From NCBI GenBank assembly GCA_964016885.1, contig OZ024750.1, positions 6,882,001-6,946,000 on the forward strand: 64,000 bases of DNA. Direction: 5' to 3'. The position numbers and the translations under genes were made by a program. The notes beneath the pieces are model-generated. The model was not told the origin of the DNA and made no database searches. It was given only the letters and a program-made list of their open reading frames with translations. This document shows, piece by piece, positions 84 to 55,014 of this stretch (position 1 is its first letter; every line of letters begins with the position of its first letter). This DNA is from Eledone cirrhosa. Taxonomy: Eukaryota.

Positions 84-695
84 CACACGCGTATATACAT
101 ACACACACACACACACACACATGTATACACACGTACACACACACACACACATGTATACACACGTACACACACACACACATGTATACACACGTACACACAC
201 ATGTACATACACTCGTACACACACACACACATGTATACACACGTACACACACACACACACATGTACACACACTCGTACACACACATGTACACACACACAT
301 GTACACACACTCGTACACACACATGTACACACACAATCACGTTCACACACACACACACACACACATATGTGTACACACACATGTACACTCACACGTACAC
401 ATACGCACACGTACACACACACACGTTAACACGTACACACATATACACACACATACATGTATGCACAACACATGTACGTACACACATACGTATACACACA
501 CAACACACCTACGTACACACATACGTGCTCATATACACACACACACAACACATACGTACCCACATACGTACCCACACGCACAACACACGTACGTACACAC
601 ATACGTACTCATATACACACACACACATCTACATGCACACGTACGTACACACACGTACACACACACACAGATATATTAGTGTAGAAACACACACA
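84..695. repeat. (CA)n/(TACACAC) compound microsatellite
   Basis: Direct inspection; source of the HT/CV ORFs. Confidence 0.95.
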
Positions 696-1567: not shown

Positions 1568-1650
<83 letters not shown>

Positions 1651-1685
1651 TATAAGTATTAATAAAATAGATGTTCTTTTGATCA

Positions 1686-1749
1686 ATTACATTTTATTAT
1701 ACATATTTCGGAGGTACAAACAGTACGTCCTCATCAGACAAAATATAAT
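1686..1749 (-). ncRNA. Type I hammerhead ribozyme (inverted copy)
   Basis: Minus strand: AUUAUAUUUUGU-CUGAUGA-GGACGUAC UGUUU GUACCUCC-GAAA-UAUGUAUA-AUAAAAUGUAAU. Confidence 0.8.
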
Positions 1750-1841
1750 GATACATGACATACCCTGAGGTGTTAAATGGTTAAGATTTAATCAAGGTAG
1801 TAAATCTTAACCATTTAACATCTCAGGGTATGTCATGTATC

Positions 1842-1904
1842 ATTATATTTTGTCTGATGAGGACGTACTGTTGTACATCCGAAATATGTATAATAAAATG
1901 TAAT
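1842..1904 (+). ncRNA. Type I hammerhead ribozyme
   Basis: CUGAUGA 1854-1860; stem II GGACGUAC/GUACAUCC; GAAA 1881-1884; short self-complementary stem III AUAUGUAU; AUA cleavage triplet (cut after 1892); 12-bp stem I 1842-1853/1893-1904. Confidence 0.85.
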
Positions 1905-2041
1905 TGATCAAAACAACATCTATTTTATTAATACTTATATTTTAATATTAATAACTCCTGAAAATTATTTTTTCCGTTGAGTGCTTCCAATCTACTGTAA
2001 AACTCATTCTTTGACATAATCATTGAATATTGTTTAACAAC

Positions 2042-2107
<66 letters not shown>

Positions 2108-2111
<4 letters not shown>

Positions 2112-2385
2112 GAGGTTATATTTAATTTGTTGGGCTTCAACAAGCTTAAACATTTTTATAACTGATATAAAGCACTCAACAGATATAAATGTACTATCTC
2201 CACTATCCACGAAGCTCCAACCGTTAAGGTTGTCTTTTTTTTCCGGGTATGTCCATATTTATTTATAAAACAAATCTGTATTTTATCTGATGAAAGCGCA
2301 CCATAACTTGCCTTGGTGACCCTTGAAATATGTATAATAAAATAAATAGGGTTTTATAAATATAGTTTCCATTTATTAATATATT
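2108..2385 (+). mobile_element. Penelope-like short element (family B) carrying a hammerhead
   Basis: Homologous to reverse-strand copy at 24254-24436; flanked by (TA)n. Confidence 0.7.
2279..2344 (+). ncRNA. Type I hammerhead ribozyme
   Basis: UAUUUUAU-CUGAUGA-AAG..CACCA(loop)UGGUG..CUU-GAAA-UAUGUAUA-AUAAAAUA; perfect 8-bp stem I. Confidence 0.8.
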
Positions 2386-2386
2386 G

Positions 2387-2417
<31 letters not shown>

Positions 2418-6964: not shown

Positions 6965-7164
6965 TAAAAGTTTATCTCGGGTTCAATCGGATTCAATCGG
7001 GGGTAACCACAGTAAGTAAGGTACTCAATACAAAGCAGAGTATAAATATTTAATATAGAAATGCTTCTACAGGACTAGAACTGTTTCATTCGGGAGAAAT
7101 CATCAGTGCTTCCTGATGATTTCTCCCGAATGAAACAGTTCTAGTCCTGTAGAAGCATTTCTAT
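6965..7164. mobile_element. Penelope-like fragment (family D) with perfect 52-bp-arm palindrome (7055-7164) containing a variant hammerhead core
   Basis: Arms 7055-7106 / 7113-7164; CUGAUGA-U-UUC UCCC GAA-U-GAAA-CAGUUC; a second partial copy lies at 34146-34200. Confidence 0.65.
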
Positions 7165-9090: not shown

Positions 9091-9800
9091 TTCCACATGG
9101 ATCATTTGCCATTTCTTTATCCAACTTGTCATCCGTCGTATTCATCATCAGATATATCGCAACAGAACAGACTTCTCTCTTACACAACACATCACATCTC
9201 CCTCTCTCGCTCTCTCTAGCTCTCTCTAGCTCTCTCTCTGTCTCCCTCTCTCTCTCTAGCTCTCTCTAGCTCTCTCTCTGTCTCCCTCTCTCTCTCTAGC
9301 TCTCTAGCTCTCTCTCTCTCTCTAGCTCTCTAGCTCTCTCTCTCTAGCTCTCTCTCTCTAGCTCTCTCTCTCTAGCTCTCTCTCTCTAGCTCTCTCTCTC
9401 TGCCTACTTACATCCCTATCTCTCTCTCTCTCTCTCCAGGCTTTTCTCTATGTCGGTTTATTTGTTCTTTCTCATTCATGCAGACTAACATTATATATCT
9501 AGCTAAGCATGATCACCTCATTCCTTCCCAGCTTCCATAACACCCCCCCCCCCCCCCCCCCCGCCGCCATTCCTTCCCACCCTCCCCACACCCCATCGTC
9601 ATCATTCAATGGCCAGCTTTTGCTGCCATGAAATATCAAACTTTGCATTCAGCCATCATACAACGAGCTGTTCACATGGCGAGAGCATCCCTTTGTTGCT
9701 AACACTGTTTAAAAAACCTCTGAATCTCTCCACCTCCATCTTCACTTATGTATGCATGTAGATATGTATGATGAACATATATATATATATATATATATAT

Positions 9801-9976
9801 AACGAAGGAAATGTGGTAAGGAACCAGGTGGACCATAACGCACCAAAGTACTCAATACTTGAGGTAGTAGAGTGGGTAATAGGAACCAGTAAGACCCCGA
9901 CAGCTGAGCTCAAGCCGTTTCGACGGCTAATTCTCGTCGAAACGGCTTGAGCTCAGCTGTCGGGGTCTTACTGGTT

Positions 9977-9981
<5 letters not shown>
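9801..9981. mobile_element. Penelope-like fragment (family C) with perfect 47-bp-arm palindrome (9879-9981)
   Basis: Arms 9879-9925 / 9935-9981; axis is a GACG-loop-CGUC hairpin followed by GAAA; (TA)n on both sides. Confidence 0.65.
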
Positions 9982-12792: not shown

Positions 12793-13456
12793 CATAGCAA
12801 TAATTTAGATCAATACACAATTATATAGACCTTGTTGCTCAATAATCTCTCAATGAAAAACTGTTGCGAAAAGAACGGTAATTCCGAACGCACTCATAAA
12901 AGATAACATTATAGAGACAACATATTTAATAGCTTGTATAGGAAGAAAACAAGGAACAAGAATAGGGTTAGGAAGAAAAGTCATCTTACAATTTATGTGT
13001 ATGTGTGTGTGCACATGTATGAGCGTGTACACACATATATGCATGTGTTTGTGTGTGTGCCTGTATGTGTGTCTGTATGTATGCATAAGTAAACATATTA
13101 ACCCTTTTAATACCAAACTGCCTGAAAGTGCTCTTTGGTTCTTAGATACAAAGCTGTTTAGATAAAAGTGTTTATATTTATCTAAAATTTCTCCATCATA
13201 ATTTTATGTAAGAACCTTTGTTAAGTTATGGTCCAAACACCAACTTAATAACGAGAAAGATATATTGATAAATTCCTACAAAGGGGAGAATAAATCTCAC
13301 ACTGCTACCCCTTTTTACTGGTAAATCATTTGGGGTCATCTTTCACTAGATAAAGTCTTCATTAAATGAGAAAATGTGAATTAGTTGTGTATTTACTACA
13401 AGAATATGTGGGACTCAAATGTTAAGTATTTACTACAACATAATGTGGATTCCAGA

Positions 13457-14109
13457 TCACTCATGCATGCAAGCCTGGTCATGGTGTTTTGTGGAAGACC
13501 AGCAGTCACTCATGCATGCAAGCCTGGTCATGGTGTTTTGTGGAAGACCAGCAGTCACTCATGCATGCAAGCCTGGTCATGGTGTTTTGTGGAAGACCAG
13601 CAGTCACTCATGCATGCAAGCCAGGTCATGGTGTTTTGTGGAAGACCAGCAGTCACTCATGCATGCAAGCCAGGTCATGGTGTTTTGTGGAAGACCAGCA
13701 GTCACTCATGCATGCAAGCCAGGTCATGGTGTTTTGTGGAAGACCAGCAGTCACTCATGCATGCAAGCCTGGTCATGGTGTTTTGTGGAAGACCAGCAGT
13801 CACTCATGCATGCAAGCCTGGTCATGGTGTTTTGTGGAAGACCAGCAGTCACTCATGCATGCAAGCCTGGTCATGGTGTTTTGTGGAAGACCAGCAGTCA
13901 CTCATGCATGCAAGCCTGGTCATGGTGTTTTGTGGAAGACCAGCAGTCACTCATGCATGCAAGCCTGGTCATGGTGTTTTGTGGAAGACCAGCAGTCACT
14001 CATGCATGCAAGCCTGGTCATGGTGTTTTGTGGAAGACCAGCAGTCACCCATGCATGCAAGCCAGGTCATGGTGTTTTGTGGAAGACCAGCAGTCACCCA
14101 TGCATGCAA
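13457..14109. repeat. 49-bp minisatellite (~13.3 copies)
   Basis: Unit tcactcatgcatgcaagcctggtcatggtgttttgtggaagaccagcag. Confidence 0.95.
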
Positions 14110-15035
14110 CTCGCGAGGTTCACACGGCTGGCCAGCTCAGCGCCTATGGTGGTTATAATCCTAACAACCTAACCCCTAAGCTATCTATGATACAAAGCCA
14201 GCATAGAAAGAGAAATCTAGACATTTTAAACAATATGAATGACAGGATTGTTTACAGGGCTTGAATAAGTCTGCAAATGTAAACATTTCAATGAATTCTT
14301 TGTTGGCATAAGTATTTTACAACTTAGTTGCTTAGTAGTGCTCTTACTAACTATTTGAGACTGGGTTGGGTCGGGTGAGGTGGTGGTAAACACACATTTT
14401 AACAAGATATACTAATGAAGACTATCAAAATAATTTGCTGTAAAGACCAAAATGTGCACCATAAGTTCTGAAATAAAACTAAATAAAAAGGAAAACGGTA
14501 ATGAGGTAGAGAATTTGAACTAGTGACCTTTAATGTCAATAGACCAACTACATTTATCATTCAGCCATTACTCTTCTGAATATTTAATGATGCTTCTTTT
14601 TCTCAAAGACAAACCGAAAAAATTATCTCTTCAAACTTTTACTTCCATTAGCAAAAGCTAAACTTGTCTCACTTGATGTTAAAACATTAGTCTGTATGTA
14701 TGTATACATTTATTTATTTGTGCATATGTATGTATATGTGTGTGTATATATATATAAATCTGTGAGTACATATATGTGTGTACATGTATATATATATATA
14801 TATATATCAGTGTGTACATATATGTGTGTATATATATATGATGTGTGTGAGAGAGAAAGTGTTTGTGTTGCTTAAATGTGATGAAAAATCTGTAAAAAAC
14901 AAAATGAGGCCACTCAGTATTTGTTGGAAAGTTTATATATTTGTGAATTTAAAATATTTCAAGTTTCTGTCATTACTGAAGGTTTTTCACAAAATACATC
15001 ATCACCTACATTACATGGAAGGTGTTTGTCTGTTT

Positions 15036-24247: not shown

Positions 24248-24253
24248 ATGATA

Positions 24254-24436
24254 TTAAATAAATGGAAACTATATTTATAAAACCATATTTATTTTATTAT
24301 ATATATTTCAAGGGCAACCAAGACAACATTGGTACGCTTTCATCAGATAAAATACAAAATAAACTGTTGAGTGCTCTAAATCAGTTATAAACATTTGTTT
24401 GTTGGACTTCCAACAAATTAAATACAATTTCTACTT
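24254..24436 (-). mobile_element. Penelope-like short element (family B)
   Basis: Reverse-complement homology to 2108-2385, lacking ~95 bp internally. Confidence 0.7.
24290..24354 (-). ncRNA. Type I hammerhead ribozyme
   Basis: Minus strand: UAUUUUAU-CUGAUGA-AAG..ACCAA UGUUGUC UUGGU..CUU-GAAA-UAUAUAUA-AUAAAAUA. Confidence 0.8.
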
Positions 24437-53382: not shown

Positions 53383-53456
53383 AATGTGCGTGTTGATGCT
53401 TTGTTATAATTTTATTTCTCTTCATTCTCGTTTCAGTGATGGATTAAATTTTAGTA

Positions 53457-53945
53457 ATGGCCACCTGCAGCAATGTGCAATGTTTGGATAAGCAGAGTAT
53501 TGAAGGTGATCCTGCTGATGACAGTGCTAGTGATATTTATAAGCCACCATCCAATTACTCCACATATTCCCAAGAGGTAAAATATATTTTTGAACCAACA
53601 TGCAGTCTTCCACACCAAGACTATTCCTACATCCAAGCCGGCTCCAGAAATGGAGCTTCGTCTGGTTCTATAAACAGCAAAATAATGACTGCTTCTAGTT
53701 TTTGTACACGGTCTTCTGGGTGTCATTCTCGGGGCAGTAATTACAAAATGGTCTCCTCCCATTATCACAGTCTTGAAGAATGCTACAAACAAGAAAACCG
53801 GTCCCCTTTCTCTGCTTTAAAAATAACAAATGTGAGAAATAGTTCTGAAAATTTAAATTACAGTCACCCGATAAAAGTTGACTGCAGAGAAAGCAAAGAT
53901 TTTGGACCGCCAAAACTAGCTCCTGTTAGTGGCATATTGACAAGA
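53457..53945 (+). CDS. LZTS2-like: First coding exon (exon 53437-53945) of a leucine zipper putative tumor suppressor (LZTS2/ProSAPiP1/N4BP3-like) gene; downstream exons not found in window
   Basis: Polypyrimidine acceptor tttcag at 53431-53436; ATG 53457; 163 complex codons; phase-0 donor GTAAGT at 53946. End of exon [13 protein letters not shown] resembles the LZTS motif PPKLIPVSGKLEK. Confidence 0.75.
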
Positions 53946-55014
53946 GTAAGTAGCAAATTGTTTCATTTATTTCAAATTTTTTGTGCGAAAATTACATTGT
54001 TTTGAGAAATGTTTATTATTTTTCTCAGGCTAAAAAAACAAGAACTACAGTTTACAGCTAAAGACAATTTTAAAGAAATATTATTGGAACATAAATGTTA
54101 ACCGGCTGTATCCAGCCAGAATTCTCATGATTTGGTATCAAAAGGATTAAAGGCAGTACCAAAATTGTCTATGGTTCTTACAGTAAAATTTTCTTGAAGT
54201 GAAAATTTATAAAAACACATTCAATCGGAGAGGTGTGGGTTCGACTCCTATGTGTGCTGATACCCTTCTTTTTCCATTCAGTGAGTTTATATGCCCCATT
54301 ATTAGACTATATATTTAGTCAAAATATTACTGCGAAGCTTCTATTTTTTTTTCAATTCTAAACTTCCCTCGTTGCGTTCTAAACATACCTCTTGTATTTA
54401 ATCCTATTTAAAATTTTATTAATCATGTTGTAGAAGAATGACGACTTTATAGAGAGAGATATTGCTGAAGTAATAGCAAGACTTGTTAATGAGGGAAGAA
54501 GCTAAATACAAGAGCAAGGTCAAGAGATTAGATGCTAAGCTAACCTAACCTCTGGAGCAAAGTCAAGGATTAATTATTGAGTGGAATTAATCAGCAGAGC
54601 AAATTGAGATGGAGCTAGTCATTGCAGGATGACAGAGATTAGATGCTAAGTGGGACTTCTAAGTAAGTTGAGGACACTTAGGGATTATTTCCTAAGTCTA
54701 ATATCTGAAGATGGTTGGTCATTCATTAATTATTTGATAGTGACAGTATTTCCTTGTTGCTGAAGAATGTTACCAAGGTTTCTAAAACACCAGAGCCATT
54801 AACTAGTAATTTCCACAGTGCTGTCTCTTCAAAGACTCTGTATCTCTGTTATAGCTGTATTGAGATGTTTATATGGTAGTACATCATGGTTCATGTTGAC
54901 ATCCATGTTGTAGCTGTGTTGAGGTGTTGTGTGTGTGTGTGTAACAGCTCACATCTATGCAGGTTTAGCTGGCCTCCAAGGTATATCTCATTGGAGGTGT
55001 CTTGGGTAATTTAA

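What the first reader, a model, noticed from the sequence alone, without database searches (positions are those of the whole stretch)
1642..1948. Two divergently oriented hammerhead ribozymes inside a ~300-bp palindrome
Seen: 149-bp arms with only about 4 differences. Each arm encodes a complete type I hammerhead (CUGAUGA, 8-bp stem II with one mismatch, GAAA, AUAUGUAU stem III, AUA site, 12-bp stem I), one on each strand. Known: minimal type I hammerheads with a palindromic stem III occur in Penelope-like element pLTRs and retrozymes and often cleave as dimers. Inference: a transcript in either direction would carry an antisense copy followed by the ribozyme, so the long hairpin competes with ribozyme folding. 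That could act as a self-silencing switch and a long dsRNA substrate for ADAR or Dicer.
Basis: partly seen in the sequence, partly recalled or inferred. Interest (0 to 1): 0.75.

Follow-up and report, generated by a model that had tools for sequence, protein, structure and literature searches.

The report
Head-to-head Penelope retrotransposon stump
The palindrome and its two hammerhead-ribozyme motifs are real, but they are one of many similar head-to-head stumps of an abundant Penelope-type jumping gene sitting in TA repeats, likely made when two copies of the element's front end were written into one DNA break, and the ribozymes are predicted to be silent in any RNA read across the whole palindrome.

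Summary
In detail: arms 1642-1790 and 1801-1948 differ at 4 places, each has a minimal type I hammerhead motif, predicted cut after 1892. The feature is longer than reported (1642-2047) and not unique. It is a short inverted arm plus a long arm with a ~100-nt tail, between two (TA)n tracts. The 40-nt ribozyme core has 1,383 exact copies in the genome; this exact junction has 21. The parent is a Penelope-like element with Hydra-clade motifs (pLTR-ORF-pLTR found). Opposite-strand hammerhead pairs, head-to-head pLTR palindromes and one-sided tails are all in print, and this scan noted the same layout before on other DNA. A 'switch' is not supported: the core mutates as fast as its flanks (1.55% vs 1.45%), and junctions vary freely. 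Not an assembly chimera. What is mildly interesting is how it forms: 45 of 50 divergent insertions pair one short with one long end, and often neither arm contains the other. That favours two separately primed cDNAs joined at their ends over the published self-priming model. Cleavage and expression are untested; Rfam gives no hammerhead hit.

The parts
1571..1644 (.). Left (TA)n target tract (two runs, 1571-1608 and 1615-1644, split by a 6-nt copy of the arm's end)
1642..1801 (-). Short arm: pLTR copy from element position +1 (1801) to +159 (1642); ends at the family's 'short' 3' end
1686..1749 (-). Minimal type I hammerhead motif, core starts 1737, predicted cut after 1698
1791..1801 (.). Inversion junction: element +1..+11 carried by the short arm only, 1-nt overlap at 1801; same junction in 21 genomic copies
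1801..2047 (+). Long arm: pLTR copy from +12 to about +258, ends at the family's 'long' 3' end
1826..1834 (+). Conserved splice-donor-like motif upstream of the ribozyme (intron not shown)
   Evidence: no spliced copy found
1842..1904 (+). Minimal type I hammerhead motif, core 1854-1860 and 1881-1884, predicted cut after 1892
1949..2047 (+). One-sided ~100-nt tail (sequence between the two family 3' ends; in the parent it leads into the 5' UTR of the ORF)
2046..2107 (.). Right (TA)n target tract, shared with the next insertion
2102..2394 (.). Separate insertion of a sister family with the same build: inverted tail-only arm (2102-2182, minus) and short arm with one hammerhead (core at 2287, plus)

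Best explanation
This is a doubly 5'-truncated, head-to-head insertion of an abundant Penelope-like retrotransposon family with Hydra-clade protein motifs, likely made by two separately primed cDNAs and likely now decaying without function. Shown: the family unit is pLTR-ORF-pLTR with the hammerhead in the pLTR, in sense; copies end at one of two fixed points (+159 or +256/260), both TA-rich, and run into (TA)n; a divergent insertion nearly always has one end of each kind. Inferred: the element's endonuclease cuts a (TA)n tract; because (TA)n is self-complementary, both broken ends can prime on UA-rich sites inside the uncut element RNA, one at +159 and one at +260; both cDNAs run towards the RNA's 5' end, which likely lies at an initiator-like TCACT (+1); their ends are then joined by end-joining or a template jump, here +1 of the short cDNA to +12 of the long one. 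The ribozymes are passengers of the pLTR. They are predicted to need a same-strand partner (dimer), which this copy lacks, and to be sealed in the hairpin in a read-through RNA.
For: Copy number: 1,383 exact matches of the 40-nt core, 19,005 for the wider pattern, 21 and 24 exact copies of two junction forms. Parent: L084 has two direct pLTRs 4,047 bp apart around a broken RT + GIY-YIG-like ORF; L198 and L200 join arms 98% identical to the window's to 636-aa and 554-aa open frames; motifs RWR/RWK, DKT, YRDD, CxCX5C, CxxC, CxH match the Hydra description. Ends: 130 of 139 arms end at +150..168 (71) or +250..266 (59); of 50 divergent insertions 45 are short+long, 1 short+short, 0 long+long, 4 have an odd end (p = 5e-13 for 45 of 46 if ends were independent). 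Two cDNAs: in 20 of 43 adjacent pairs the short arm reaches further 5' than the long arm, so neither contains the other, and in 6 of 43 the long arm is tail only; in the 21 exact-junction copies the loop goes with the short arm in 13 and the long arm in 8. Fixed 5' end: 21 of 139 arms stop at +1..+3 with unrelated partners, and sister families stop at the same CACTA motif (L156, L160, L162, L169). One event: arms of one insertion share subfamily alleles (site 1937: 18 both, 1 discordant; 7.1 and 22.7 expected), yet private changes are on one arm in 109 cases and on both in 8. Uncut template: 1,751 of 2,141 copies of the sequence just 3' of the cut site keep the exact 11 nt upstream, against 1,886 of 2,141 for an 11-nt downstream control. 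Decay: core 1.55%, flanks 1.45%.
Against: No intact autonomous ORF of this exact family was found: the copies read are broken or partial, and Pfam gives no hit on them; clade assignment is by motifs, with no tree against reference elements. In 9 of 43 pairs the short arm lies wholly inside the long arm and 5 are ties, which a fold-back copy could also give. 30 of 80 insertions show one arm only in the stretch fetched. The +1 start site and the priming chemistry are inferred from DNA ends alone. In the one PLE tested in vitro, RT starts at sites not homologous to the cut DNA, unlike the UA/TA pairing proposed here. Repeated recovery of one exact junction could in part reflect copying of an already palindromic master. 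The sample is the first 95 of 1,383 exact-core matches, all on contig C1, and is biased to young copies.
Confidence: 0.85

Rival explanations
1. Same element, but the palindrome arises by self-priming or fold-back of one cDNA (or of an antisense RNA), as proposed for Penelope elements of Adineta vaga.
For: Published interpretation of head-to-head palindromes (PMC3846280, passages). The parent has a 7-bp hairpin around +1..+14 that would favour a fold-back, and the junction using it has 24 exact copies. In 9 of 43 pairs the short arm is contained in the long arm.
Against: In the window's own copy and in 20 of 43 pairs each arm holds sequence that the other lacks; 6 of 43 long arms are tail only. 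One insertion (L104) has arms from two subfamilies. A sister family without that hairpin still stops at +1 (L162).
Confidence: 0.12
2. The ~400-bp palindrome is itself a mobile non-autonomous unit (MITE-like or retrozyme-like) copied from a palindromic master.
For: 21 dispersed copies share the junction letter for letter.
Against: The same junction occurs on several subfamily haplotypes, each matched between its two arms, and with the loop on either arm; most insertions have other junctions. No tandem same-strand monomers at this locus, which retrozymes need.
Confidence: 0.07
3. The palindrome is a selected self-silencing ribozyme switch or a dsRNA source used by the host.
For: Folding predicts full burial of both ribozymes in a read-through RNA. 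An earlier unchecked note reports editing of such hairpins in another genome (e1-9574549).
Against: Core changes at the background rate, 13 of 91 arms have a changed core base; arm length and junction are free to vary; the two arms here have drifted apart at 4 places; no state is evident in which the ribozyme would be switched on.
Confidence: 0.04
4. Fold-back sequencing or assembly artefact.
For: Near-perfect palindromes are prone to such artefacts (general knowledge); the contigs laid did not span the locus.
Against: The arms differ at 4 places, are unequal in length, and the same junction is found at 21 loci on 11 contigs in both loop orientations.
Confidence: 0.01

Closest known systems
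Hydra-clade Penelope-like elements (Craig et al. 2021, PMC8557442; passages, section 11 and supplement rows read)
   Same: C-terminal endonuclease, RWK-like and DKT motifs, CxCX5C linker, CxxC and CxH near the end, hammerhead in the pLTR, insertion into (TA)n; inverted 5'-truncated copy and a tail at one end only. A cephalopod member (Hydra-1_Obim) is listed in the supplement.
   Different: Unit is about 4.05 kb (long 3' UTR) against 'generally <3 kb'; tail about 100 nt against 30-40 bp. Sequence not compared with the listed families.
Minimal hammerheads of metazoan PLEs (Cervera and de la Pena 2014, PMC4209133; parts 1-2 of 4 read)
   Same: Type I, long stem II (7-8 bp), small palindromic stem III, thousands of dispersed copies; the paper reports dual motifs 100-700 bp apart on opposite strands, tied to truncated PLEs; monomer inactive, dimer weakly active in their test.
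   Different: Stem I here can be 12 bp; stem II has a conserved internal C-C/C-A mismatch at pair 4; pair 10.1-11.1 is G-U or A-U in sister families; no clear unpaired base before stem II.
Penelope elements of Adineta vaga (Arkhipova et al. 2013, PMC3846280; passages)
   Same: Head-to-head inverted pLTRs with a palindrome at the junction, optional tail on one of them, initiator-like TCACT in the pLTR.
   Different: They propose self-priming on an antisense template; the arm geometry here fits two primers better. Their insertions have target duplications; here (TA)n hides them.
Poseidon_Ac of Anolis (Frangieh et al. 2024, PMC11167929; parts 1-2 of 4 read)
   Same: Two internal RT start sites that define the tail; both target strands cut and extended; AT-rich target; uncut RNA is the template and the hammerhead is not needed.
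   Different: There the start sites lie in the ORF in an AC-rich stem loop, not homologous to the target; here they lie in the 5' UTR at UA-rich sites that match (TA)n, and genomic copies pair one of each.
Non-LTR retrozymes (bioRxiv 10.64898/2026.07.22.740005; part 1 of 5 read)
   Same: Type I hammerhead of PLE origin, no coding sequence in the copy.
   Different: Retrozymes are head-to-tail tandem repeats with a ribozyme in each unit on one strand; this is a head-to-head pair.
Twin priming of LINE-1 (recalled, no paper read)
   Same: Both ends of the target prime cDNA on the element RNA and give a 5' inversion.
   Different: In L1 the second primer site is variable and the two parts do not overlap; here both sites are fixed and the arms usually overlap, which needs two pLTR copies, two RNAs or strand displacement.

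Membership tests
EN+ Penelope-like element | pLTRs flanking one ORF with RT and C-terminal GIY-YIG endonuclease | tested here: met
   L084 pLTR-ORF-pLTR; YRDD and LVYKC..YIG motifs; best homologue carries PF01541. The family's own ORFs get no Pfam hit and are broken.
EN+ Penelope-like element | Inverted 5'-truncated copy and tail at one end | tested here: met
   45 of 50 divergent insertions are short+long
EN+ Penelope-like element | Hammerhead motif in the pLTR, sense strand | tested here: met
EN+ Penelope-like element | Retained spliceosomal intron near the 5' end (some families) | tested here: inconclusive
   Donor-like motif at +39 conserved in sister families; no spliced copy for one guessed acceptor
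Hydra clade | RWK, DKT, CxCX5C, CxxC, CxH motifs; no CCHH | tested here: met
   RWR/RWK, DKT, CNCx5C, CxxC in L082 and homologues, CxH; no Cys pair inside the GIY-YIG core other than one C, read by eye
Hydra clade | Insertion into (TA)n | tested here: met
   58 of 71 short ends and 38 of 59 long ends are followed by (TA)3 or more within 3 nt
Hydra clade | Groups with Hydra RTs in a tree | not tested
   No reference sequences were at hand as fetched records
Type I minimal hammerhead ribozyme | Core C3 U4 G5 A6 N7 G8 A9, G12 A13 A14 A15.1, U16.1 H17 | tested here: met
   Both arms
Type I minimal hammerhead ribozyme | Stem II kept by compensatory changes | tested here: met
   147 distinct sequences, pairs 1-3 and 5-7 are 93-97% paired with G-C/A-U and U-A/C-G swaps; stem II was not used as a filter, stem I was. 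Related copies are not independent.
Type I minimal hammerhead ribozyme | Self-complementary stem III for a dimer | tested here: met
   Co-folding two copies gives the dimer form as the lowest-energy structure; sister families use other self-complementary 8-mers
Type I minimal hammerhead ribozyme | Hit to an Rfam hammerhead model | tested here: not met
   minimal motifs were defined by descriptors, not by these models
Type I minimal hammerhead ribozyme | Self-cleavage | not testable with these tools
   needs a bench assay
Non-LTR retrozyme | Two or more tandem same-strand units, each with a hammerhead | tested here: not met
   One motif per strand in 1642-2047; definition

The most novel reading that the evidence does not exclude
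Hydra-clade Penelope elements integrate by an obligate two-primer reaction: both ends of a cut (TA)n tract base-pair with two different UA-rich sites inside the uncut element RNA, one end per site, in the manner of a telomerase template, and the two cDNAs are joined head to head near the RNA's 5' end. This would replace the published self-priming model for PLE palindromes and make thousands of copies in this genome a readable record of the reaction.
Probability: 0.5. Interest if true: 0.5.

Novelty: new member of a known kind. Interest (0 to 1): 0.2.

Why it matters
The locus itself is ordinary. Its family is useful: how Penelope-like elements make their inverted structures is named as an open question in PMC8557442, and the strict short/long pairing, the fixed +1 stop and the non-nested arms give testable predictions for an in vitro reaction like the one set up for Poseidon_Ac. 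The family also seeds the genome with many 100-300-bp inverted repeats, a possible bulk source of dsRNA where they fall in transcribed DNA (not tested).

Tried and rejected
Rfam: no hammerhead hit in three scans; the miRNA-family hits are only long-hairpin matches below gathering score. Expression: no RNA holder listed. Four coded contig runs laid on 1450-2400 gave only short repeat pieces and none spanned the locus, so they say nothing on the locus. Spliced copy: 0 matches for one guessed exon junction. Cut RNA as template: 34 of 2,175 copies have a base other than A at H17; of 30 inspected, 22 by eye (14 by the script's strict filter) still had the ribozyme upstream and 8 were junctions, so no pile-up at the cut site. 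Editing trace in copies: A>G 3.3 against T>C 2.9 per 1,000 in 254 arms, no excess. An antisense ORF in the tail, considered by eye, was dropped once the sense ORF was found. Flip-flop hairpin replication as in parvoviruses, considered because the loop occurs in both orientations, was dropped: two-primer symmetry explains it and junctions vary. No PLE ORF lies in the window or the 8 kb upstream. Lunse et al. 2017 was not held; I saw it only as cited in a review's passages (PMC6765202). Searches for a printed two-primer model of PLE inversions listed none, but they cover only the held library, and I read only parts of the papers named; figures and most supplements were not seen.

Full report
1. 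Observation. The palindrome is real. Arms 1642-1790 and 1801-1948 differ by three substitutions and one indel around a 10-nt spacer. Each arm has the hammerhead core, an 8-bp stem II with one mismatch, a self-complementary 8-mer in place of a stable stem III, an AUA site and a 12-bp stem I; H17 is 1892 on the plus strand and 1698 on the minus strand. A core-plus-stems pattern finds 3 sites in the window and none in 100 shuffles. Rfam 15 has no hammerhead hit in three scans. The insertion is longer than reported: the right arm continues to 2047, and (TA)n lies on both sides.

2. It is a repeat. The window lies in a 3.0-Gb genome. The 40-nt core has 1,383 exact matches; a pattern with free stem II has 19,005, in several sister families. 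The window's junction has 21 exact copies on 11 contigs, and a second junction form has 24.

3. The parent. Two same-strand cores 4,047 bp apart (L084) enclose pLTR, tail, 5' UTR, a broken ORF and a long 3' UTR. The ribozyme is in the pLTR, in sense. L198 and L200 join arms 98% identical to the window's to open frames of 636 and 554 aa. The protein has RWR/RWK, DKT, YRDD, CxCX5C, a GIY-YIG-like LVYKC..YIG, CxxC and CxH. These are the marks of the Hydra clade, which inserts into (TA)n and carries hammerheads (PMC8557442 section 11); a cephalopod member is listed in its supplement. It has 1,065 homologues at E<=0.001 among 7,996 candidates scored. Pfam gives no hit on the family's own frames. 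No intact copy of this exact family was seen, and no tree was built.

4. Anatomy of insertions. Positions are counted from the A of an initiator-like TCACT (+1). I fetched 95 of the first 100 listed core matches, all on contig C1; they give 139 arms in 80 insertions. 3' ends: 71 at +150..168 (51 at +159), 59 at +250..266 (54 at +256 or +260), 9 elsewhere. 58 of 71 and 38 of 59 run into (TA)3 or more within 3 nt. 50 insertions are divergent: 45 short+long, 1 short+short, 0 long+long, 4 with an odd end; 30 show one arm or another layout in the stretch fetched. If ends were drawn independently, 45 of 46 has p = 5e-13. 5' ends vary widely but pile up at +1..+3 (21 of 139) and +8..+10 (16 of 139). 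Arms that stop at +1 join unrelated partners, including ORF positions (L082, L055), and several junctions hold short re-copied pieces starting at +1 (L078, L101, L085). Sister families stop at the same CACTA motif. The window's copy is short arm +1..+159 joined to long arm +12..+258 with a 1-nt overlap at 1801.

5. One primer or two. A fold-back copy must lie inside its template. In 20 of 43 adjacent short/long pairs the short arm reaches further 5' while the long arm has the tail, so neither contains the other; in 6 of 43 the long arm is tail only; in 9 the short arm is nested, 5 are ties and 9 are far apart. Among the 21 exact-junction copies the loop goes with the short arm in 13 (as here) and with the long arm in 8. 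In 48 palindromic insertions the two arms share subfamily alleles (mean difference 3.7% within, 6.1% between; site 1937: 18 both, 1 discordant), one (L104) mixes two subfamilies, and private changes are on one arm 109 times and on both 8 times. So each palindrome is made in one event, mostly from one source, again and again on different haplotypes, and then drifts. The nested pairs and ties remain open to fold-back.

6. The ribozyme. Across 147 distinct sequences stem II keeps its pairs through G-C/A-U and U-A/C-G swaps and keeps a C-C or C-A mismatch at pair 4; stem III variants stay self-complementary (stem I was a filter, copies are related). That points to selection on active source elements. 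In inserted copies the core changes as fast as the flanks (15/970 vs 94/6477; 13 of 91 arms have a changed core base, young copies favoured). The monomer's active fold is 4.4 kcal/mol above its lowest-energy fold, and two copies co-fold as the dimer. Stems I and II have pair probability 0.00 in the 1642-1948 RNA, 0.86 and 0.85 in the parent's +1..+260, and 0.77 and 0.79 in 1790-2047, but stem I drops to 0.07 in 1790-1948. cDNAs run through the cut site: 1,751 of 2,141 copies keep the exact 11 nt upstream of it, against 1,886 for a downstream control, and only 8 of 30 inspected non-A copies are junctions. This agrees with the in vitro result that uncut RNA is the template (PMC11167929).

7. Mechanism. 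Shown: parts 1-6. Inferred: the endonuclease cuts (TA)n; both ends prime on UA-rich sites at +159 and +260 of the uncut RNA, one end per site, perhaps through a protein dimer (a dimer is predicted for Poseidon_Ac); the cDNAs run towards +1, using two pLTR copies, two RNAs or strand displacement where they overlap; their ends are joined by short homology or a template jump. Confidence 0.85 for 'ordinary inverted PLE insertion', about 0.5 for the priming details. The element's likely own start lies at the palindrome's centre, as internal promoters do in Penelope (PMC2377424, passages), so only read-through RNA from the flanks would form the hairpin.

8. What is known. Opposite-strand pairs of minimal hammerheads 100-700 bp apart, tied to truncated PLEs, are reported in PMC4209133. 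Head-to-head pLTR palindromes with an optional tail and TCACT are in PMC3846280, which proposes self-priming on an antisense template. The inverted copy and one-sided tail are in PMC8557442. Two RT start sites that define the tail are in PMC11167929. My searches listed no paper with a two-primer account of PLE inversions; they cover the held library only. This scan's earlier notes reach the same verdict on other DNA, twice in this genome, and one notes the short/long rule in another genome; I saw them after reaching this reading (stated, counted), and they are not independent evidence.

9. Verdict. Real, ordinary, already explained in kind: a new copy of a known insertion product, from a Hydra-type family. 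The switch reading is not supported. Interest 0.2; the family-level evidence on how the inversion forms is the only part worth following.

Noticed in passing
window 2102-2394 and 24248-24427: Two insertions of a sister family with a longer stem II, each built of an inverted tail-only arm plus a short arm with one hammerhead (cores at 2287 plus, 24346 minus); the first shares the (TA)n tract 2046-2107 with the finding.
   Followed up: partly
window 9800-9980 and 2490-2650: Another very common repeat between (TA)n tracts (hits in 62 of 231 fetched loci); the copy at 9878-9980 ends in a perfect 48-bp inverted repeat with a 7-nt loop, and a related copy at 2490-2570 has a shorter hairpin. No hammerhead core seen in it.
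   Followed up: partly
window 1609-1614: A 6-nt copy of the short arm's end interrupts the left (TA)n tract; L027 shows the same. Slippage or a repeated RT start.
   Followed up: no
family-wide, stem II pair 4 (window 1864/1877): A C-C or C-A mismatch is kept at the same place of stem II in 131 of 147 sequences from families with otherwise different stems; could be a protein or tertiary contact.
   Followed up: partly
sister family of window 2287: Pair 10.1-11.1 is A-U or G-U in about half of the sequences, against the usual G-C of hammerheads.
   Followed up: no
L078, L085, L090, L101, L104, L124, L125 junctions: Short re-copied pieces that begin at +1 sit at the junction, as if RT jumped from the RNA's 5' end onto the end of the other cDNA more than once.
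   Followed up: partly
L004:1150-2042: Two long arms facing each other (tail to tail) inside a larger inverted duplication that includes flanking DNA; differs from the usual head-to-head build.
   Followed up: no
L077 (minus strand 3038-2088), L031, L065, L084:5953-6999, L085:5408-6034: Fragments of other Penelope-like ORFs lie next to copies of this family, one of a different type with a CxxC..CxxC linker.
   Followed up: no
window 13380-14261: Tandem repeat open in three frames for 240-290 codons.
   Followed up: no
window 53448-54002: 185-codon Ser-rich open frame on the plus strand, possibly an exon.
   Followed up: no
window 7084-7150: An inverted repeat gives a CUGAUGA..GAAA match on both strands (7113 plus, 7106 minus) without hammerhead stems.
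   Followed up: no
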